In this document: positions 2,636-64,000 of the stretch, piece after piece
Numbering within the stretch: position 1 is the first letter of the stretch
Layout: each line of letters opens with the position of its first letter
The notes under the pieces: model-generated
What the model was told of the DNA's origin: nothing
Databases searched by the model: none
The model's input: only the letters and a program-made list of their open reading frames with translations
DNA from: an uncultured virus (IMG/VR IMGVR_UViG_3300042559_001081)
Lineage: Duplodnaviria; Heunggongvirae; Uroviricota; Caudoviricetes
Strand: one strand, 5' to 3'
Length of the DNA stretch: 64,000 nucleotides
Virus record (IMG/VR): IMGVR_UViG_3300042559_001081
Span: 62,001 to 126,000 of that record
Position numbers and translations under genes: made by a program

Positions 2636-5189
2636 ACTGTTCCTTTAACCAATTAAAGTCGTTAATTTTTTTCAAAGTTTCGATGCTGTCTTTATTTCTT
2701 GCACCAAAAAGTGCACCAAATTTAGCACCATCTATTGCATATTTGCCAAACGGTCTATCTTTGCCTGTTGTACACCATGTTTGCAATCTGTTTTGCGTTT
2801 CTGTATCTTTTTGCCTATCGATAATTTTACTGCTTAATTTAGTGCATTCTCTAAAAGCACTTTTCCAAGTATTAAACGGGTCTGTGTTAAATCCTGTGAC
2901 ATTAGAGATTTCTTGCACTGCTTTAAACTTGCTGCTAATGCTAGTTGTCATATCAGGCTTTGATGTATCCATATTAATAGTTAGTTCTGTAGGAAATAGT
3001 TTTATGCCGCCGTATCCATATACAAGATCATTAATCGGATTTACAGATCGCCATACATGCACCATTTCTTTATCCCAACGAGGAACTTGATAATCAAATT
3101 TAAAATTAGATTCTACAAGTGCGTCGCCGTCGACAATCCAAAACATATCAGTTGAACATAGTTTAGCTGCCTCTATATGTGCCTGATGAATTCCTTTAAC
3201 TCCGTGAACACGCTTTGCTCTAGGAAATCTGGCTATCAAATATTTGTAATACTCGTCTGCGTTGGGTTCTTGATAACTAATAAAAACAATGTCGTATAGT
3301 GCAGGTGTTGATATAACCACGTTGACTTCTTTTTTATGAGCAATAAATCTATAATCTAATTCTCTTTTACTGAATTTTGCCTGTTTACTGCAAAGAAGAA
3401 TACCGTCATTGTACTTTCCATTTAAATATGCATGATTTATTGTTCTGTCATACGTATTATCATGCGTAAAATATGTGTCGTATTTAAATCGTGTTGTTGG
3501 ATTTACATAACTAGGAATAATCCAAAACATTTCAGTTTTAGAATTTTCAAGTGCATACAAGTATTCGTCATAAGTGTCAACATTAAACTTTTCGTATTGT
3601 ACAGGACCACTTGCTACAACAGGCCATTCTTTTCGGTTAAGTATAAACTTATGATTAATTTCTTTTTCAGAAATTTTTCTATTTTTACTAAACAAGAAAA
3701 CACCGTTATAATAGTCTTTATCATTTACTCGATGTATAAACGAATGATTTGTTGTTCTGTCATATTCGTTATCATGAGTAAAATAGATGTTAAACAAAAA
3801 GTTATCATCTATTTTTATATTATTGCTTGTACCCCAAAACATTTCAGTTTTAGAATTTTCAAGTGCATACAAGTATTCATCATACGTATCTATATTAAAT
3901 CTGTCATATTGCACAGGACCACTTGCTACAATGGGCCATTCTTTTCTATTTACAATAAACCTATGTTCTATTTCTCGTTGAGTAAGTTTCTTATTTTTAG
4001 ATAGTAAAAACACACCATTATATAAGTCATTGCCATCAACACGGTGTATAAAAGCGTGATTTATTGTTCTGTCATATTCGTTGTCATGAGTAAAGTATAC
4101 ATCAAAATCGAAAGAACTAAAGTCAATGTTATTACTAGTACCCCAGAACATTTCAGTTTTAGAATTTTCAAGTGCATACAAGTATTCGTTATAAGTGTCA
4201 ACATTAAACTTTTCGTACTGTATAGGTCCACTTGCTACAATGGGCCATTCTTTTCTATTAATAATAAATCTATGTTCTATTTCTTTTTTTGTCAAAACAC
4301 AATGCTTACTACATAAGAAAACTCCATTGTATAAGTCTTGGTCTTTAACTCTGTGTATAAAAGCGTGATTTGTCTTAGAGTCATAATTATCATGAGAAAC
4401 ATATATACGGTTTAACACACTGTCGTCAACACAAATGTTTCTCGACAACATCCAAAACATATCAGTATTAGAATTTTTAAGTGCATACAAATATTCATCA
4501 TACGTATCTATATTAAATTTGTCATATTGCACAGGACCACTTGCTACAATGGGCCATTCTTTTCTATTAATAATAAATCTATGTTCTATTTCTTTTTTTG
4601 TTAAAGGTCTGTTTTTACTACAAAGAAATATTCCGTTATAGTAATCTGTTCCGTCAACGCGGTGTATAAAAGCATGATTTTCATTTCTGTCATAGCTGTT
4701 ATGATGAGAAATATAAAAATTGATTATTAGTTCGTTATTTTCTTTTACATTTCTTGACAACATCCAAAACATTTCAGTTTTAGAATTTTCAAGTGCATAC
4801 AAATATTCGTCGTAAGTGTCAATATAAAACTTGTCGTATTGTATCGGACTACTAGCTTTTATATCGACTTCTTTTTTATTAATAAAAAATCTATGAGAGA
4901 TTTCTTTATTTGATATGTTAGAATTTTTTGGAACTAAACAAATTCCGTCGTAGTCTGTTCCGTTTAAAAAAACATGAATGTAATCTTTACTCCATTCATC
5001 TGGAGTATAAGAAAAATCAAAACTTTCTAATACATCACAGTCGTCCCAAATTACCCAAAACATTTCAGTCATAGAAATGTTTTGTGCTTGTCGAAAATCC
5101 ACTGCTACTTTTGCTATAGGAAAACGAGCTTTTATTTTTTTAAAGTTTTCATTTGAAAACTTTTGTTTAATGTAAATTATGTCATACAT
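2616..5189 (-). CDS. GT-A fold glycosyltransferase-like protein with six N-terminal ~100-aa repeats
   Basis: C-terminal YDIVFISYQEPNAD...RVHGVKG...MFWIVDGD (DxD) domain, paralogous to 22124-23056; repeated YDEYLYALENSKTEMFW...RKEWPIVASGP units. Confidence 0.75.
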   Translation of the reverse strand: MYDIIYIKQKFSNENFKKIKARFPIAKVAVDFRQAQNISMTEMFWVIWDDCDVLESFDFSYTPDEWSKDYIHVFLNGTDYDGICLVPKNSNISNKEISHRFFINKKEVDIKASSPIQYDKFYIDTYDEYLYALENSKTEMFWMLSRNVKENNELIINFYISHHNSYDRNENHAFIHRVDGTDYYNGIFLCSKNRPLTKKEIEHRFIINRKEWPIVASGPVQYDKFNIDTYDEYLYALKNSNTDMFWMLSRNICVDDSVLNRIYVSHDNYDSKTNHAFIHRVKDQDLYNGVFLCSKHCVLTKKEIEHRFIINRKEWPIVASGPIQYEKFNVDTYNEYLYALENSKTEMFWGTSNNIDFSSFDFDVYFTHDNEYDRTINHAFIHRVDGNDLYNGVFLLSKNKKLTQREIEHRFIVNRKEWPIVASGPVQYDRFNIDTYDEYLYALENSKTEMFWGTSNNIKIDDNFLFNIYFTHDNEYDRTTNHSFIHRVNDKDYYNGVFLFSKNRKISEKEINHKFILNRKEWPVVASGPVQYEKFNVDTYDEYLYALENSKTEMFWIIPSYVNPTTRFKYDTYFTHDNTYDRTINHAYLNGKYNDGILLCSKQAKFSKRELDYRFIAHKKEVNVVISTPALYDIVFISYQEPNADEYYKYLIARFPRAKRVHGVKGIHQAHIEAAKLCSTDMFWIVDGDALVESNFKFDYQVPRWDKEMVHVWRSVNPINDLVYGYGGIKLFPTELTINMDTSKPDMTTSISSKFKAVQEISNVTGFNTDPFNTWKSAFRECTKLSSKIIDRQKDTETQNRLQTWCTTGKDRPFGKYAIDGAKFGALFGARNKDSIETLKKINDFNWLKEQFDARNI
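3300..5189. repeat. Intragenic tandem repeat, period ~309-312 bp
   Basis: Block ccaaaacatttcagttttagaattttcaagtgcatacaa or close variant starts at about 3522, 3834, 4143, 4452 and 4764, with a degenerate copy at 5055. Confidence 0.9.
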
Positions 5190-59736: not shown

Positions 59737-60747
59737 GTGTTTAAGAAAGCAGCAGTGTTTACGGACCTTCATTGTGGTATGAAGGGTAATTCAAAAATTC
59801 ATAATCAGGATTGTGAAGATTTTGTTGATTGGTATATCGAAACTGCCCAAAAAAATGGATGCGATACTGGAATCTTTTGCGGTGATTGGCATCACAACAG
59901 AAATAGTTTAAATTTAACAACTATGGATACCAGTATTAGATGTTTAGAAAAACTTGGAAAAGCTTTTGACCAGTTTTTTATGTTTGACGGCAATCACGAT
60001 CTTTATTATAAAGACAAAAGAGATGTAAATTCTACAGCATTTGCAAAACATATACCTGGAATTACAACTATTAACGATATTTACGTTAAAGACGACGTTG
60101 CTCTTATACCTTGGTTAGTTGGCGAAGAATGGAAACGCATTCCTAAGATAAAATCCAAGTATATGTTTGGACATTTTGAATTACCAAGCTTTTATATGAA
60201 CGCAATGGTGCAAATGCCCGATCACGGAGAACTTAAAAGTGAGCATTTTGTAAATCAAGACTATGTTTTTAGTGGACACTTCCACAAAAGACAGAAGCAA
60301 GGCAAAATTCACTACATAGGCAATGCATTTCCGCACAACTACGCCGATACATGGGACGATGATAGAGGAATGATGATCCTCGATCGAGAAAACAATAAAG
60401 AACCAGAGTACATTAATTGGGCAGATGCTCCTAAATATCGAAATGTTATGCTTTCTCAGTTGATAGACAACAAAGATACTTTAATAAAATCAAAAATGTA
60501 TCTTCGAGTAACATTAGATATTCCTATTTCCTACGAAGAAGCAAATTTTATTAAAGAAACGTTCATGGAACAGTACGAATGTAGAGAGATTACTCTAATT
60601 CCACAAAAGCAGATTGAAGAAATTAGCACTGACCTTGATATAGGACAGTTTGAGAGTGTTGATCAGATTGTTAGCAATGAAATTTTAGCTATCGACAGTG
60701 AAAATTTTGATAAATCTCTTCTATTAAAAATTTATAGTGAATTATGA
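59737..60747 (+). CDS. gp47: Recombination endonuclease subunit (Mre11/SbcD-like)
   Basis: Phosphoesterase motifs DLH, GDWHH, GNHD, GHF, SGHFH. Confidence 0.92.
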   Translation: MFKKAAVFTDLHCGMKGNSKIHNQDCEDFVDWYIETAQKNGCDTGIFCGDWHHNRNSLNLTTMDTSIRCLEKLGKAFDQFFMFDGNHDLYYKDKRDVNSTAFAKHIPGITTINDIYVKDDVALIPWLVGEEWKRIPKIKSKYMFGHFELPSFYMNAMVQMPDHGELKSEHFVNQDYVFSGHFHKRQKQGKIHYIGNAFPHNYADTWDDDRGMMILDRENNKEPEYINWADAPKYRNVMLSQLIDNKDTLIKSKMYLRVTLDIPISYEEANFIKETFMEQYECREITLIPQKQIEEISTDLDIGQFESVDQIVSNEILAIDSENFDKSLLLKIYSEL

Positions 60748-62531
60748 CAATAAAAATTAAAGACTTATCTGTTAAAAACTTTATGAGTGTGGGTAATGTT
60801 ACTCAGGCTGTCGACTTTAATCGAGAGCAACTCACTCTAGTGCTTGGCGAAAACTTAGATCAAGGAGGTGACGATTCTGGTTCCCGTAACGGTACAGGCA
60901 AAACCACTATTATTAACGGTTTATCATATGCCCTGTACGGCCAAGCACTTACTAATATTAAAAGAAACAACCTAATTAACAAAACTAACAGCAAAGGTAT
61001 GTTAGTTACGTTAAATTTTGAGAAAAATGGGGTTGAATATAGAGTTGAACGTGGAAGATCACCTAATATTCTAAAATTCTTTGTTAACGGTGTTGAAAAG
61101 TCTAGTGAGATCACTGACGAAAGTCAAGGTGATAGTAGAGAAACTCAAAAAGATATCAACGAGTTACTAGGACTTAGTCACAATATGTTTAAACACATTG
61201 TTGCTCTCAATACATACACCGAACCATTTCTTAGTTTAAAGACCAATGAACAAAGAGAAATTATCGAGCAACTGTTAGGCATTACACTACTTTCGGAAAA
61301 AGCAGAATCTCTTAAAGAACAAATAAAAGTAACAAAAGATATTATTACAGAAGAAACTTTAAAGATTAATGCCATTCAAGCAAGCAATGAGAAGATAAAA
61401 GCCAGCATAGATCAGCTTGTTAGTCGTCAACGTGCATGGGAAAGTAAGAAAAAGCAAGATGCTGAGCATTTGCAAAAAGCTATTACCGAACTTGAGCACT
61501 TAGACATTGATTTAGAACTAGAACTTCATGAAAAATTAGTTAATTGGACACAATTAAACAACGAGATCTCTGGTTTAAACAAAGAAAAGTCAACTTTAGA
61601 AACTGCAATGCTACGTGCAAGCAATTCTGTAAAAAAGATCGAAGACGATATTAACAATTTAGATGATGCTGTTTGTTTTACATGCGGTCAAGCGTTACAC
61701 AAAGATAAAAAAGAAAAAATATTAGCTGAAAAAGAAAAAGAACTAGCAGATGCTAACGCATACAAAGACGAAGTTGATTCAAAACTTCAGATTGTTCTTA
61801 AGTCGTTGAGTTCTATCGGTGATATTAACGGAAAACCTGTTACATTTTATGAAACAGCTAAAGAAGCATACGAACATCGTAGCAATGTCGATAATTTAAA
61901 AGTATTATTAAAGAATAAAGAACTAGAAGAAGACACATACCAAGATCAAATAAACGATTTAAAGACAACTGCGTTACAAACAGTCGACTGGTCTACAATT
62001 AACAAGCTAACTTCACTAAAAGAACATCAAGAGTTTCTTTTAAAGCTGTTAACTAATAAAGATTCTTTTATTAGAAAAAAAATTATAGATCAAAACTTAA
62101 ATTATCTAAACAATAGACTGACTTATTACTTAGATAAACTAGGATTGCCTCATCAAGTAGAGTTTTTAAACGATCTAACTGTTCAAATTACACAGTTAGG
62201 TCAAGATTTAGACTTTGACAACTTGTCAAGAGGCGAAAGAAACAGACTTATACTTGGATTAAGTTTTGCATTCCGCGATGTTTGGGAATCTTTGTATCAA
62301 TCAATCAACTTATTGTTTATAGACGAGTTAATTGATAGTGGAATGGACACCGCAGGTGTAGAAAATTCCTTAGGTGTACTTAAAAAGATGGGTCGTGAAA
62401 GAGATAAAAATATATTTTTAATATCTCACAAGGATGAATTGATAGGAAGAGTTAATAATGTTCTTAAAGTTATTAAAGAAAATGGGTTCACATCCTATCA
62501 ACCTGACTTAGAAGTTACAAGTATAATTTAA
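60744..62531 (+). CDS. gp46: Recombination ATPase subunit (Rad50/SbcC-like)
   Basis: KNFMSVGN, Walker A NGTGKTT, zinc hook CFTC, signature LSRGE, Walker B LFIDE, ISH. Confidence 0.93.
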   Translation: MTIKIKDLSVKNFMSVGNVTQAVDFNREQLTLVLGENLDQGGDDSGSRNGTGKTTIINGLSYALYGQALTNIKRNNLINKTNSKGMLVTLNFEKNGVEYRVERGRSPNILKFFVNGVEKSSEITDESQGDSRETQKDINELLGLSHNMFKHIVALNTYTEPFLSLKTNEQREIIEQLLGITLLSEKAESLKEQIKVTKDIITEETLKINAIQASNEKIKASIDQLVSRQRAWESKKKQDAEHLQKAITELEHLDIDLELELHEKLVNWTQLNNEISGLNKEKSTLETAMLRASNSVKKIEDDINNLDDAVCFTCGQALHKDKKEKILAEKEKELADANAYKDEVDSKLQIVLKSLSSIGDINGKPVTFYETAKEAYEHRSNVDNLKVLLKNKELEEDTYQDQINDLKTTALQTVDWSTINKLTSLKEHQEFLLKLLTNKDSFIRKKIIDQNLNYLNNRLTYYLDKLGLPHQVEFLNDLTVQITQLGQDLDFDNLSRGERNRLILGLSFAFRDVWESLYQSINLLFIDELIDSGMDTAGVENSLGVLKKMGRERDKNIFLISHKDELIGRVNNVLKVIKENGFTSYQPDLEVTSII

Positions 62532-62533
62532 AA

Positions 62534-62800
62534 ATGACTAGAAAAACTTATCCTTTAAAAGTACACATTGATGATACACACGACAAACTAGCAAAGGCGT
62601 ATCTCGAATATTTCAAAGCAAACGAAATATTCGAGCAACGTCCATCTGAACCAAAACGCCGTATAGTTCGAAAATGGCTTCAAGAGATAAGACATTATGC
62701 TAAATTACGTAGAGTAGAGGTAATTGAGTCTCATCTTAACAAGCAAGAAAGATACAAACGCGGTGGCAAGCAAAAGCAAGACAAAGGGGAAGGGGTTTGA
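62534..62800 (+). CDS. Small basic hypothetical protein
   Basis: In-operon ORF between gp46 and the resolvase. Confidence 0.6.
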   Translation: MTRKTYPLKVHIDDTHDKLAKAYLEYFKANEIFEQRPSEPKRRIVRKWLQEIRHYAKLRRVEVIESHLNKQERYKRGGKQKQDKGEGV

Positions 62801-63278
62801 AAGAGAAATTGCAAACTTCTTATCAGAACTCTACGAAGATTCTTTTACTAGAGTACCTGATTCGGGTGCATTTACCGGAGGCAAAAACGCTCATAGACGA
62901 GATAAGCTCACTGAAGGTCAAATTAGATCCCATAAAGGCGACATCATTCCACCCGACGACTGGAAAAAATTTAACGCAGAGTGTAAAAACTATGCGGAAT
63001 TCCCGTTTCACCAATTAATTTCTTTAGGCCACATACCTTTACTCGAAGGTTGGATTTCACAAACACTAGAAGCAGCAGACCAAGGCGACATTAATATTAT
63101 CTTTATGAAGTTTAATCGTAAAGGCAGATATGTTTTATTTCAAAAAGAAAACGACTTTCAAACTTACAGGCACGTCGACTATCAAGATAAATCAGGCAAC
63201 TACTGGCGATTTACAAGCTTTGACGATTTCTTTTCCTTAAACAAAGATTTATTTCAAAAAAACTGCACAGGCATTTAA
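62763..63278 (+). CDS. Holliday junction resolvase-like PD-(D/E)xK nuclease
   Basis: SKTKGKGFEREIA, RVPDSGA, GDII, AECK; GTG 62763 is the likely start. Confidence 0.8.
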   Translation: MASKSKTKGKGFEREIANFLSELYEDSFTRVPDSGAFTGGKNAHRRDKLTEGQIRSHKGDIIPPDDWKKFNAECKNYAEFPFHQLISLGHIPLLEGWISQTLEAADQGDINIIFMKFNRKGRYVLFQKENDFQTYRHVDYQDKSGNYWRFTSFDDFFSLNKDLFQKNCTGI

Positions 63279-63299
63279 GGCTAACATCAAACAGCACAT

Positions 63300-63690
63300 A
63301 AGGTTGGCGGGCCAGTTTATAATACCGCTGTGGAAAAGTCGGCTTGATACCCGAACACGTGACATGTTGAGACATTGCCGGTAGTAGGCTCTAAGTATTG
63401 ACATTGAATGATTGCTGTCATTCAAAAACACCGCATACTCCTAAACACTTAAGGATTGAGGAACGAGCTTAAGACAGGCAGTGCAGCGTAAACAGTACAT
63501 TGAAAAGTGTATTGTTTATGACGCATTGCCTGGGTCGACGCAGGTAGGGAAAAGGTTAGAGTCCCTGGAGTTGGTGTATAAACAAAAAACCTGCTTCCCG
63601 TGTCTCGGCTAGTGCAACTCACATGAAGTCAACGACGACGGAACCTTAAAACAGGTTCCGTCTGACCAGATTAATCTACATGAAGTATTT
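63300..63690 (+). ncRNA. Large structured non-coding RNA of unknown family (candidate)
   Basis: No credible ORF; many helices with G.U pairs on the plus strand, a GAAA-capped ~25-bp arm (63475-63532), a perfect 10-bp hairpin (63637-63662), long-range and pseudoknot pairings. Confidence 0.7.
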
Positions 63691-63722
63691 CACTTCGTGC
63701 TTAATATTATTTAGAAAAGAAA

Positions 63723-63764
63723 TGTGTTGAGCGATAGCGAAACACAGATGAACGTAGTTCATCT
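63723..63764 (+). other. Two abutting mini-hairpins with GATA and GTA loops
   Basis: TGTGTT-GA-GC-GATA-GC-GA-AACACA and AGATGAAC-GTA-GTTCATCT. Confidence 0.6.
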
Positions 63765-63766
63765 TG

Positions 63767-63774
63767 TATAAATA
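63767..63774 (+). promoter_or_regulatory. T4-type late promoter TATAAATA
   Basis: Exact consensus, followed by AAGGA RBS and ATG 63803. Confidence 0.75.
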
Positions 63775-63802
63775 ATATTAACAACTCTAAAGGATTTCTC
63801 TT

Positions 63803-64000
63803 ATGAAAATATCTTCTATTATCGCAGAACAAGAAAAAACAAATGAAGGCCCACTAAGAAATATAATGCCTGCATTTACTAAAACACAAAAACTAAGAAA
63901 GGCAGCTGGTAAAGCTGCCGCTGGTGCTACTAAAGATGAAATTCGACAAATGGAAGTTGAATTATTAACTTATATGGAATACTCGGGTCAAAAAAGAGCA
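63803..64000 (+). CDS. Late gene (partial), possibly an internal head protein
   Basis: Manual translation MKISSIIAEQEKTNEGPLRNIMPAFTKTQKLRKAAGKAAAG..., open to window edge; product call is a weak inference from the short Glu-ending leader. Confidence 0.6.
   Translation, partial: MKISSIIAEQEKTNEGPLRNIMPAFTKTQKLRKAAGKAAAGATKDEIRQMEVELLTYMEYSGQKRA

What the first reader, a model, noticed from the sequence alone, without database searches (positions are those of the whole stretch)
63300..63690. Unassigned ~390-nt highly structured, probably pseudoknotted RNA after the resolvase gene
Seen: this is the only long gap in a window whose other intergenic spaces are under about 80 nt, and it is visibly more GC-rich. 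Plus-strand helices: CAGGCAGTGC/GCATTGCCTG stacked on CGTAAACAGTACATT-GAAA-AGTGTATTGTTTATG (63475-63532; several G.U pairs and a GNRA loop, which favours RNA and fixes the strand); TTGAATGA/TCATTCAA (63404-63425); AGGCTC/GAGCTT (63386/63465) closing a multiloop; GCAGGT/ACCTGC (63540/63589) enclosing AGGGA/TCCCT; long-range TGAGACAT/GTGTCTCG (63368/63600) and CATGT/ACATG (63363/63621); GACGGAACCT/AGGTTCCGTC (63637-63662). GAGTTG (63568) can pair with CAACTC (63615) across the GCAGGT/ACCTGC helix, giving a pseudoknot. It does not read as tRNA, tmRNA, group I/II intron or canonical RNase P. Inference: a ribozyme-sized phage ncRNA (scaffold, catalytic or replication-primer RNA) linked to the gp47-gp46-resolvase operon.
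Basis: partly seen in the sequence, partly recalled or inferred. Interest (0 to 1): 0.88.

Follow-up and report, generated by a model that had tools for sequence, protein, structure and literature searches.

The report
New large twin-box phage RNA
The gap after the nuclease gene holds a real gene for a heavily folded RNA of about 400 bases that matches no catalogued RNA family, recurs in many uncultured water phages, and carries two identical short boxes whose role is unknown.

Summary
Window 63279-63802 is the only long ORF-free gap. It is more GC-rich than its surroundings and its plus strand folds far better than shuffles (z -5.95).

The decisive evidence is comparative. On 25 full-length relatives, a 12-helix structure with three pseudoknots pairs in 96.1% of cells, against 33-41% when slid, and 34 of 63 pairs show compensatory changes. 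Its four long-range helices, including its pseudoknot, are at shuffle level.

No Rfam 15 family matches and ARAGORN finds no tRNA or tmRNA. The RNA is single-copy in two near-complete jumbo-phage genomes. It sits in a conserved slot: gp47, gp46, a swappable nuclease, the RNA, a late gene.

Its oddest feature is two identical 7-nt boxes flanking a conserved hairpin. They co-vary as direct repeats in 57 of 58 sequences, across 16 variants.

Function is unknown. My best guess is a trans-acting RNP or ribozyme-type RNA; an origin/primer RNA is the main rival. This scan noted the same RNA class twice before on other DNA.

The parts
63269..63282 (+). Two AGGCA/AGGCT boxes just upstream of the RNA's conserved 5' end. 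They may be a promoter element or binding sites.
   Evidence: (A/T)AGGCA-type boxes recur 1-4 times in the 100 nt upstream of the RNA in 24 distinct relatives. The last one often lies 8-15 nt before the conserved 5' end. This was seen by eye and has no statistics. No sigma-70-like promoter lies on the plus strand here.
63291..63423 (+). 5' domain. H1 63291-63296 pairs with 63413-63418, which is the loop of H4, so this is a pseudoknot. H2 is 63305-63310/63325-63330. H2b is 63339-63342/63351-63354. H3 is 63364-63370/63398-63404 and encloses a variable insert. H4 is 63406-63410/63419-63423.
   Evidence: helices 1-6 pair in 85-99% of cells, with compensatory changes in 3 of 6, 4 of 6, 4 of 4, 3 of 7 and 3 of 5 pairs. 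Model R1, built from 24 sequences, scores the window at 142.9 bits, once only in 64 kb.
63437..63473 (+). 5' strand of long-range helix H5 (ACTCC, 63437-63441), the conserved TAAACAC, and hairpin H6 (63448-63453/63468-63473), whose loop carries the near-invariant GGAACGAG.
   Evidence: H5, which pairs with 63567-63571, changes on both sides in 5 of 5 pairs (for example CUCC/GGAG, GCUA/UAGC, GUCGC/GCGAC). H6 changes on both sides in 7 of 7 pairs. Invariant columns are listed.
63475..63532 (+).
   Evidence: It is present in the minimum-free-energy fold. Its length and sequence differ between subfamilies, from about 10 nt to about 100 nt. Compensating changes in L005 and L006 were seen by eye.
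63535..63594 (+). Double-pseudoknot core. PK2 is 63535-63539 with 63555-60 (A63558 bulged). H8 is 63540-63545/63589-63594. H9 is 63547-63549/63563-63565. The 3' strand of H5 is 63567-63571.
   Evidence: (58 distinct sequences retrieved without fixing H8): 98.5% of cells pair, against 31-48% when slid. PK2 has 3 of 5 pairs changed on both sides. H8 column 11-70 is CG in 29 and UA in 29. H9 has 1 of 3 pairs changed on both sides. Model R2 scores the window at 152 bits.
63617..63628 (+). Twin box 1 (ACTC-ACATGAA-G).
   Evidence: The 7-mer of box 2 occurs exactly in the box-1 zone in 57 of 58 distinct sequences, across 16 different 7-mers. The mismatched control gives 19 of 2802.
63637..63662 (+). 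Conserved 9-bp hairpin H10 between the boxes, followed by the conserved TGAC.
   Evidence: 97.3-97.5% of cells pair. Changes are mostly one-sided (G-C to G.U, A-U to G.U).
63675..63686 (+). Twin box 2 (ATCT-ACATGAA-G).
   Evidence: As for box 1. In the window only, it also forms a weak terminator-like hairpin at 63679-63699. That pairing is not kept in relatives, which I judged by eye.
63700..63763 (+). A-rich spacer, then two abutting hairpins. Hairpin 1 is 63723-63746 (stem, GA, GC, GATA loop, GC, GA, stem). Hairpin 2 is 63747-63763 (GATGAAC-GTA-GTTCATC).
   Evidence: Hairpin 1 with covarying outer stems was found by a strict script in 12 of 33 distinct relatives. It was also seen by eye in groups B-D. 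The motif GAGC-N4/5-GCGA with this context occurs once in the 138.7-kb record. Whether this stretch is part of the transcript is not known.
63767..63774 (+). TATAAATA, a T4-type late-promoter-like box before the next ORF (ATG 63803). It belongs to the neighbouring gene, not to the RNA.
   Evidence: Sequence read. Similar GATAAATAA/TATAAATA boxes stand before the homologous downstream ORF in relatives. The consensus is recalled from T4 biology.

Best explanation
Window 63291 to about 63690, possibly to 63763, on the plus strand is a stand-alone gene for a non-coding RNA of about 400-470 nt.

Shown.
- The fold is conserved. A 5' domain is closed by a pseudoknot between the RNA's 5' end and a hairpin loop. 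A 3' core is built on a double pseudoknot.
- Then follows a hairpin flanked by two identical single-stranded 7-nt boxes ('twin boxes').
- There is one copy per genome.
- The RNA keeps a fixed slot in a clade of T4-like jumbo phages from lakes and rivers.
- Its neighbouring genes vary.

Inferred.
- The RNA is made as its own stable transcript and acts in trans as the core of an RNA-protein particle or as a ribozyme.
- The fold serves as a rigid scaffold that presents the twin boxes as its specificity element.
- Only the identity of the two boxes is conserved, not their sequence, and no partner exists inside the RNA. I therefore infer that both boxes are read by the same outside partner, either two copies of a nucleic acid or a dimeric protein that co-evolves with them.
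- The flanking SegE-type GIY-YIG or PDDEXK_15 nuclease genes are most likely homing nucleases that lodge beside a conserved gene, not partners.

My odds: real conserved structured RNA gene about 0.95; a family not yet catalogued about 0.85; this trans-acting mechanism about 0.4.
For: Structure.
- 96.1% of 1552 cells pair, against 80.2% in shuffles and 33-41% when slid. 34 of 63 pairs carry compensatory changes. The covariation score is 0.471, against 0.102 or less.
- The core was re-tested on 58 distinct sequences: 98.5% paired.
- Strand: conserved G.U pairs, for example columns 18-44 (UG in 23) and 86-176 (GU in 23). The plus strand also folds better.

Breadth and copy number.
- 50 loci match one pattern and at least 119 match another.
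- 79 of 79 sources searched score 63.9-152 bits with R2.
- There is one copy each in the 138.7-kb, 330-kb (93% complete) and 382-kb (100% complete) records, and one each in five further fragments.

Not a leader of one gene.
- Upstream and downstream genes differ between members.

Twin boxes.
- 57 of 58 sequences, 16 variants, control 19 of 2802.
- RNAduplex finds no consistent partner within the RNA.
- Neither the 9-mers nor the 8-mer ACATGAAG has a reverse-complement copy anywhere in the 138.7-kb record.

Nuclease turnover in the same slot.
Against: - There is no evidence of transcription. No RNA run is on record as holding the locus, so start, end and stability of the RNA are unknown.
- No promoter was identified.
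- No protein partner was identified.
- The trans-acting reading rests on exclusion and analogy.
- Iteron-like repeats upstream, an A-rich spacer and stable GNRA/GNA mini-hairpins downstream fit a cis-acting DNA-level role at least as naturally.
- A nuclease gene lies right beside the RNA in 5 of 6 examined contexts plus the window, which could mean more than homing.
Confidence: 0.45

Rival explanations
1. Cis-acting replication-origin element. The structured transcript is a pre-primer, by analogy to ColE1 RNA II or T4 oriE. The short direct repeats upstream act as iterons for an initiator. The A-rich spacer melts. The stable downstream mini-hairpins form on the displaced strand to load primase or helicase.
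For: - 10-11-nt tandem boxes stand right before the RNA in groups C, D and L015, and AGGCA boxes before group A.
- An A-rich spacer of 30-50 nt follows box 2.
- The downstream hairpins are of the GC-GNRA-GC / C-GNA-G kind and are unique to this locus in the 138.7-kb record.
- The RNA is single-copy and lies next to recombination genes gp46/gp47.
Against: - Cumulative GC skew in the complete 382-kb relative simply follows gene strand and shows nothing special at the locus, which lies 5 kb from a strand switch. The test is weak for T4-like phages.
- About 60 invariant positions and three pseudoknots are far more structure than known primer RNAs need; that comparison is from my own knowledge.
- The twin boxes have no obvious role in this model.
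- No initiator gene is identified beside the RNA.
Confidence: 0.2
2. RNA element at the 3' end of the gp55-gp47-gp46-nuclease operon. It is made by read-through and works in cis on transcription or RNA fate at the border between middle and late genes, as a terminator or insulator, a processing or stability module, or a protein-binding site of the nut/boxB kind.
For: - The upstream gene is co-oriented in most members.
- No promoter of its own was found in the window.
- A weak terminator-like hairpin lies at 63679-63699.
- The downstream hairpin has a GNRA-type or pentaloop top that resembles boxB; the resemblance is recalled.
- A late-promoter-like box follows.
Against: - Some members have their own sigma-70-like -35/-10 upstream (L048, L066; by eye).
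- Flanking genes differ, and L217 has a wholly different context.
- About 400 nt of conserved tertiary structure is excessive for a terminator.
Confidence: 0.15
3. RNA partner of the adjacent small nuclease. It would be a guide or activator RNA, as HEARO/omega-RNA is for IscB, with the twin boxes acting as guide-like elements.
For: - A nuclease gene (SegE GIY-YIG or PDDEXK_15) lies immediately upstream and co-oriented in 5 of 6 contexts plus the window.
- GIY-YIG genes lie downstream in another subfamily (by eye).
Against: - Two unrelated nuclease folds alternate in the same slot beside the same RNA, and L217 has none.
- The boxes are only 7-8 nt long.
- In phages whose PDDEXK_15 nuclease is 56-72% identical to the window's, the same slot holds an RNA that model R2 does not match.
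Confidence: 0.07
4. Not a functional RNA. The conservation would reflect a DNA-level signal or a degenerate mobile element, and the folding would be incidental.
For: - No expression data exist.
- One Flaviramulus MAG contig carries the 5' domain alone, fused to bacterial lepB.
Against: - Compensatory changes that preserve pairing occur in 34 of 63 pairs.
- G.U pairs are tolerated on one strand only.
- Three pseudoknots are kept across sequences whose variable regions no longer align.
Confidence: 0.04

Closest known systems
GOLLD and ROOL: large ornate RNAs often carried by phages or prophages. I read the abstract of PMC12286853 in a search listing; their phage association is recalled.
   Same: - A large, multi-pseudoknot, highly conserved non-coding RNA of unknown function.
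- Phage-borne and from lake water: 12 DNA runs from lake or river water hold half or more of the locus.
- A free-standing gene, not tied to one neighbour.
   Different: - No Rfam family, these included, matches at E up to 10 in the region or at gathering score in the window.
- The RNA is about half their size.
- There are no tRNA genes nearby.
- The twin-box module has no counterpart that I know of.
- Whether it assembles into oligomers, as they do, is untested.
ColE1 RNA II pre-primer and T4 oriE-type origins (from my own knowledge; no paper read).
   Same: A structured transcript of several hundred nt lies beside repeats, an AT-rich stretch and stable hairpins. It is single-copy and sits in a DNA-metabolism neighbourhood.
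   Different: - No sequence or structural homology was tested or is expected.
- This RNA has far more conserved tertiary structure.
- There is no evidence of an RNA-DNA hybrid or of initiation here.
- GC skew is uninformative.
HEARO / omega-RNA of IscB and the reRNA of TnpB: nuclease-associated structured RNAs (recalled).
   Same: A pseudoknotted RNA of 300-400 nt lies directly beside, and co-oriented with, a nuclease gene.
   Different: - The neighbours are small GIY-YIG or PDDEXK enzymes, not RuvC/HNH effectors.
- The nuclease type is interchangeable or absent.
- There is no transposon end and no long guide segment.
Polynucleobacter-1 motif (RF01718). In PMC2864571 I saw only its row in the table: 'Burkholderiales, fresh water/estuary'.
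   Same: Freshwater origin.
   Different: It is not among the matches at E up to 10 in the region, nor at E up to 1 in 16 related loci.

Membership tests
Any Rfam 15 family (4227 models) | Match to the family's covariance model at its gathering score. | tested here: not met
   There are 0 matches in the whole window and 0 in 12 related loci. At E up to 10 on 63100-64000 only six sub-threshold matches appear, to miRNA, snoRNA and sRNA models. The best is 21.2 bits against a gathering score of 54. There are 0 matches at E up to 1 on 16 diverse loci.
tRNA / tmRNA | Cloverleaf, or tRNA-like domain plus tag reading frame. | tested here: not met
   ARAGORN finds 0 genes in the window.
Group I / group II intron | Interrupts a host gene, and matches the intron core models. 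| tested here: not met
   The upstream nuclease ORF is complete: Pfam PDDEXK_15 profile positions 1-160 of 164 are matched. The downstream ORF starts with its own ATG. No intron model appears among the Rfam matches.
   The window scores 152 bits, E 4e-31, over all 157 model positions. The window was one of the sequences used to build the model, so its score is partly by construction. 79 of 79 sources searched match; many of them were not in the model.
Twin-box phage RNA | Two identical 7-nt boxes flanking the conserved hairpin. | tested here: met
   The window has ACATGAA at 63621-63627 and at 63678-63684. Family-wide the figure is 57 of 58.
Twin-box phage RNA | Window-type 5' domain (H1-H4). 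| tested here: met
   R1 scores 142.9 bits in the window. This feature is not universal. Loci of the L040/L044, L048/L060/L066 and L055/L075 types, and groups B-D, lack it and carry other 5' domains.
ColE1 RNA II-type primer / origin RNA | Persistent RNA-DNA hybrid at the origin, processed to a primer, with replication initiating there. | not testable with these tools
   Only indirect features are available. GC skew is uninformative.
Nuclease guide RNA (HEARO/omega-RNA kind) | Obligate pairing with one effector nuclease family. | tested here: not met
   The neighbour is SegE GIY-YIG in L218-L221, PDDEXK_15 in L222 and the window, and neither in L217.

The most novel reading that the evidence does not exclude
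The RNA is a new catalytic or programmable RNA, and the twin boxes are its working sites. One reading: they are two identical processing or jump sites that let the box-hairpin-box unit be excised, circularised or copied repeatedly by a polymerase. Another reading: they are a changeable address that directs whichever small nuclease sits next door. Either would explain why only the identity of the two boxes is conserved and not their sequence.
Probability: 0.1. Interest if true: 0.92.

Novelty: categorically new. Interest (0 to 1): 0.78.

Why it matters
New large, highly structured bacterial or phage RNAs are rare. Past examples (RNase P, group I/II introns, HEARO/omega-RNA, GOLLD/ROOL/OLE) each opened new biochemistry.

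This one is widespread in uncultured T4-like jumbo phages of lakes and rivers. It is kept as a single-copy gene in a fixed genome slot. It has enough covariation for a confident secondary structure with three pseudoknots, so it is ready for probing, cryo-EM and cleavage assays.

Direct repeats that co-vary and have no partner inside the RNA are unusual for an RNA. They give a concrete, mutable handle for finding what the RNA binds.

The locus also shows how homing nucleases of two unrelated folds take turns beside one conserved RNA gene.

Limits on the novelty claim.
- My literature check was limited to three full-text searches and found no description.
- This scan had already flagged the class twice on other DNA.

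Tried and rejected
- **Expression.** No RNA holder is listed. One run guessed to be RNA and three DNA runs were laid as contigs only and say nothing about transcription or ends.
- **Cultured phages.** blastn 'distant' found no match for the window gap, group D, the L044 type or group C. Model R2 found nothing in the whole records of PA5oct and Vibrio phage 2.275.O.
- **PA5oct look-alike.** A by-eye resemblance in the PA5oct slot was not borne out with filters off: the best full-length score was 8.2 bits. PA5oct's four published ncRNAs lie elsewhere (PMC7318152, passages and Table 1).
- **Groups B, C and D.** These are phages with a related nuclease and a gap in the same slot. Neither R1 nor R2 matches them. 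They look like the same architecture by eye (box, hairpin, box, then the two hairpins). Single-sequence repeat statistics are not significant there, so I leave their homology open.
- **Partner for the boxes.** RNAduplex finds no consistent site within the RNA. The 64-kb window holds no further copy or complement. Neither the 9-mers nor the 8-mer ACATGAAG has a reverse-complement copy in the 138.7-kb record.
- **Cellular genomes.** The core pattern gave 0 hits in genome contigs. The 5'-domain pattern gave 4 hits. One is a phage-like MAG contig (L093). One is a chance hit inside a transporter ORF (L094). One has no model match (L095). One is a Flaviramulus MAG contig with the 5' domain alone next to lepB (L092). 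R1 then matched only that MAG among 141 genomes of its family, so the 5' domain is not a host RNA family.
- **Origin test.** GC skew on the complete 382-kb relative follows gene strand only.
- **Model size.** I built a 157-position model instead.
- **Box 2 hairpin.** The pairing of box 2 with 63692-63699, seen in the window, was rejected as not conserved, by eye.

Full report
**What is at the coordinates.**
- The window is bases 62001-126000 of a 138.7-kb virus record that CheckV rates 39% complete, so the phage is a jumbo phage.
- Upstream of the finding lie a gp47-like phosphoesterase (59737-60747) and a gp46-like SMC/AAA ATPase (60744-62531). A small basic protein (62534-62800) follows, then a nuclease of Pfam family PDDEXK_15 (62760-63278, E 9e-26).
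- The next ORF starts at 63803. It encodes a 271-aa, A/G/P-rich protein with no Pfam match.
- The 524 nt in between hold no credible ORF. A mechanical ORF map leaves only one ORF-free stretch of 150 nt or more in the window, at 63432-63802.
- GC is 0.435-0.45 in the 200-nt bins starting 63300-63500, against 0.33 for the window.
- The plus strand folds with z -5.95 and the minus strand with z -3.42.

**It is not a catalogued RNA.**
- Rfam 15 gives no match at gathering score in the window or in 12 related loci.
- At E up to 10 on 63100-64000 only sub-threshold miRNA, snoRNA and sRNA matches appear. At E up to 1 on 16 diverse related loci nothing appears.
- ARAGORN finds no tRNA or tmRNA.
- blastn against 50,697 cultured-phage records finds nothing for this gap or for three other subfamilies.

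**Relatives.**
- A search with the nuclease protein returned 24 viral loci. Every locus long enough to show the slot has an ORF-free gap of 500-1060 nt after the nuclease gene.
- Only the closest loci (L002-L006) share the window's sequence.
- The third pattern did not fix helix H8, so it gives an unbiased test of that helix.

**Structure.** I write refpos for window coordinate minus 63287.
- On 25 full-length relatives (alignment A1) an all-against-all covariation scan, followed by inspection, gave 12 helices.
- In the tool's count they pair in 96.1% of 1552 cells. Shuffles give 80.2% and slid controls 33-41%. 34 of 63 pairs change on both sides. The covariation score is 0.471, against 0.102 or less.
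- 5' domain:
  - The 5' end ACAGCA (63291-63296) pairs with the loop of hairpin H4 (63413-63418), which is a pseudoknot.
  - Hairpins H2 and H2b follow.
  - H3 (63364-63370/63398-63404) closes a variable insert.
- 3' half:
  - H5 (63437-63441/63567-63571) is long-range, and all 5 of its pairs covary.
  - H6 has a loop carrying the near-invariant GGAACGAG.
  - A variable hairpin occupies 63475-63532.
  - A compact double pseudoknot follows. TCGAC (63535-63539) pairs into the loop of the GGG/CCC hairpin, across the 5' strand of GCAGGT/ACCTGC.
- On 58 distinct sequences retrieved without fixing H8, this core pairs in 98.5% of cells, against 31-48% when slid. H8 switches cleanly between C-G (29) and U-A (29) at one pair.
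- Conserved G.U pairs show that the plus strand is the RNA.

- The local hairpins it saw are real: H4, the variable hairpin, H8 with H9 inside, and H10.
- Its multiloop closure, its two long-range helices and its pseudoknot pair in 58.8% of cells. The shuffle mean is 58.5%, and there is no excess covariation.

**The twin boxes.**
- H10 (63637-63662) is flanked by ACTC-ACATGAA-G (63617-63628) and ATCT-ACATGAA-G (63675-63686).
- Across the family the 7-mer changes. I found 16 variants, among them ACATAAA, ACAGGAA, GCATAAT, GATTCAA and GGTGAAT. It changes in both copies together.
- The box-2 7-mer occurs exactly in the box-1 zone in 57 of 58 distinct sequences. For mismatched pairs of sequences the figure is 19 of 2802.
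- I found no conserved complementary segment inside the RNA.
- I found no complement elsewhere in the window or in the 138.7-kb record.
- So what is conserved is the identity of the two boxes, not a particular sequence, and their partner lies outside the RNA. I cannot say what that partner is.

**Downstream module.**
- After box 2 come an A-rich spacer and two abutting hairpins.
- The first (63723-63746) has a stem, tandem GA, GC, a GNRA-type loop, GC, GA and a stem. Its outer stems covary in 12 of 33 relatives by a strict script.
- Its motif occurs only here in the 138.7-kb record.
- The second hairpin (63747-63763) has a G-N-A triloop.
- Such hairpins are stable both as RNA and as single-stranded DNA. 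That statement is recalled, and they do not settle whether the locus acts as RNA or as DNA.
- A TATAAATA box at 63767-63774 precedes the next ORF.

**Modularity.**
- Model R1 (5' domain) matches only part of the family.
- Other members join the same 3' core to different 5' domains.
- L055 and L075 carry the 5' domain seen in groups B-D; I judged this by eye.
- Model R2 (3' core) does not match groups B-D.
- Those loci show, by eye, the same layout of box, hairpin, box and the two terminal hairpins. They may be a sister class. I leave that open.

**Genomic setting.**
- R2 finds one copy in the own record, one in a 330-kb relative (93% complete) and one in a 382-kb relative (100% complete). It finds one in each of five further jumbo-phage fragments.
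- In 5 of 6 contexts examined, plus the window, the gene order is as follows.
  - First come gp47 and gp46, then a small basic protein and variable inserts.
  - A nuclease follows: SegE-type GIY-YIG in four contexts, PDDEXK_15 in L222 and the window.
  - Then come the RNA, an A/G/P-rich protein, and a T4-type baseplate gene on the other strand.
- The small basic protein travels with gp46, not with the RNA.
- L217 has the RNA in a different neighbourhood with no nuclease.
- Two unrelated nucleases taking turns beside one conserved gene is what free-standing homing endonucleases do. That comparison is from my own knowledge of T4 seg genes.
- The locus is held by DNA runs from lake and river water.

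**What it does.** Nothing here shows function.
- The fold is rich in invariant unpaired nucleotides and pseudoknots, like ribozymes and RNP RNAs.
- The gene is single-copy and independent of its neighbours, and the boxes point to an external partner.
- I therefore favour a trans-acting RNP or ribozyme-type RNA (about 0.4).
- The main rival is a cis-acting origin or primer element (about 0.2). It is suggested by iteron-like repeats, the A-rich spacer and the stable hairpins. GC skew in the complete relative only tracks gene strand.
- A 3'-end regulatory element (about 0.15) and a nuclease partner RNA (about 0.07) remain possible.

**Earlier notes and literature.**
- Two earlier notes of this scan describe look-alike RNAs on other genomes.
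  - One calls the RNA a twin-box RNA that is independent of its nuclease and names Polynucleobacter-1 as closest. I found no such match.
  - The other proposes a ColE1 RNA II-like role. I keep that as the main rival.
- Full-text searches found no description of this RNA.
- PA5oct's four ncRNAs (PMC7318152, passages and Table 1) lie elsewhere in that genome, and R2 does not match that genome.

Noticed in passing
L092 2757-2920 (minus strand): A 2.9-kb contig of a Flaviramulus MAG carries a complete window-type 5' domain (R1, 95 bits) at its very end. It is followed directly by a bacterial signal peptidase I gene and has no 3' core. R1 matched only this MAG among 141 genomes of its family. It is either a chimeric assembly or a relic of phage DNA. 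It may hint at a Flavobacteriia host.
   Followed up: partly
window 62534-62800: An 88-aa basic protein directly after gp46 has homologues in the same position in groups A and C (L219, L222, L008, L010). It stays with gp46 whichever nuclease follows. It has no Pfam match.
   Followed up: partly
L007-L025, about 3520-4400 in each locus: Phages with a 56-72% identical nuclease carry a different conserved structured RNA in the same slot. Shared motifs are TTTGGTCGRGG..GCTCGAC and GGTAYCGNNYAACCGCC. Its own twin boxes are, for example, GGGAAATAG, ATGGTAAA and AGATGAA. Tandem 10-11-nt repeats stand in front of it. R1 and R2 do not match it.
   Followed up: partly
window 63269-63282 and the 100 nt upstream of the RNA in L039-L084: (A/T)AGGCA boxes recur upstream of the RNA, some inside the end of the preceding ORF. 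In members with a sigma-70-like promoter (L048, L066) they lie downstream of it. This was seen by eye only.
   Followed up: no
L221 10949-12940: The gp46 homologue of one relative gives a weak Pfam hit to an intein splicing domain (E 1.1e-05, below the curated cut-off), so it may carry an intein.
   Followed up: no
L218 3324-6960 and L220 1478-6553: Radical SAM/SPASM enzymes and short-chain dehydrogenases are inserted between or after gp47 and gp46 in some relatives. In L220 one even lies between gp47 and gp46.
   Followed up: no
window 63803-64000, continued in L001 2025-2840: The gene after the RNA encodes a 271-aa A/G/P-rich low-complexity protein with no Pfam match. Only L222's 190-aa ORF matched it by blastp; the downstream ORFs of L219 and L221 look alike only by eye (similar N-terminus and A/G/P-rich composition). 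A T4-type late-promoter box precedes it in the window.
   Followed up: partly
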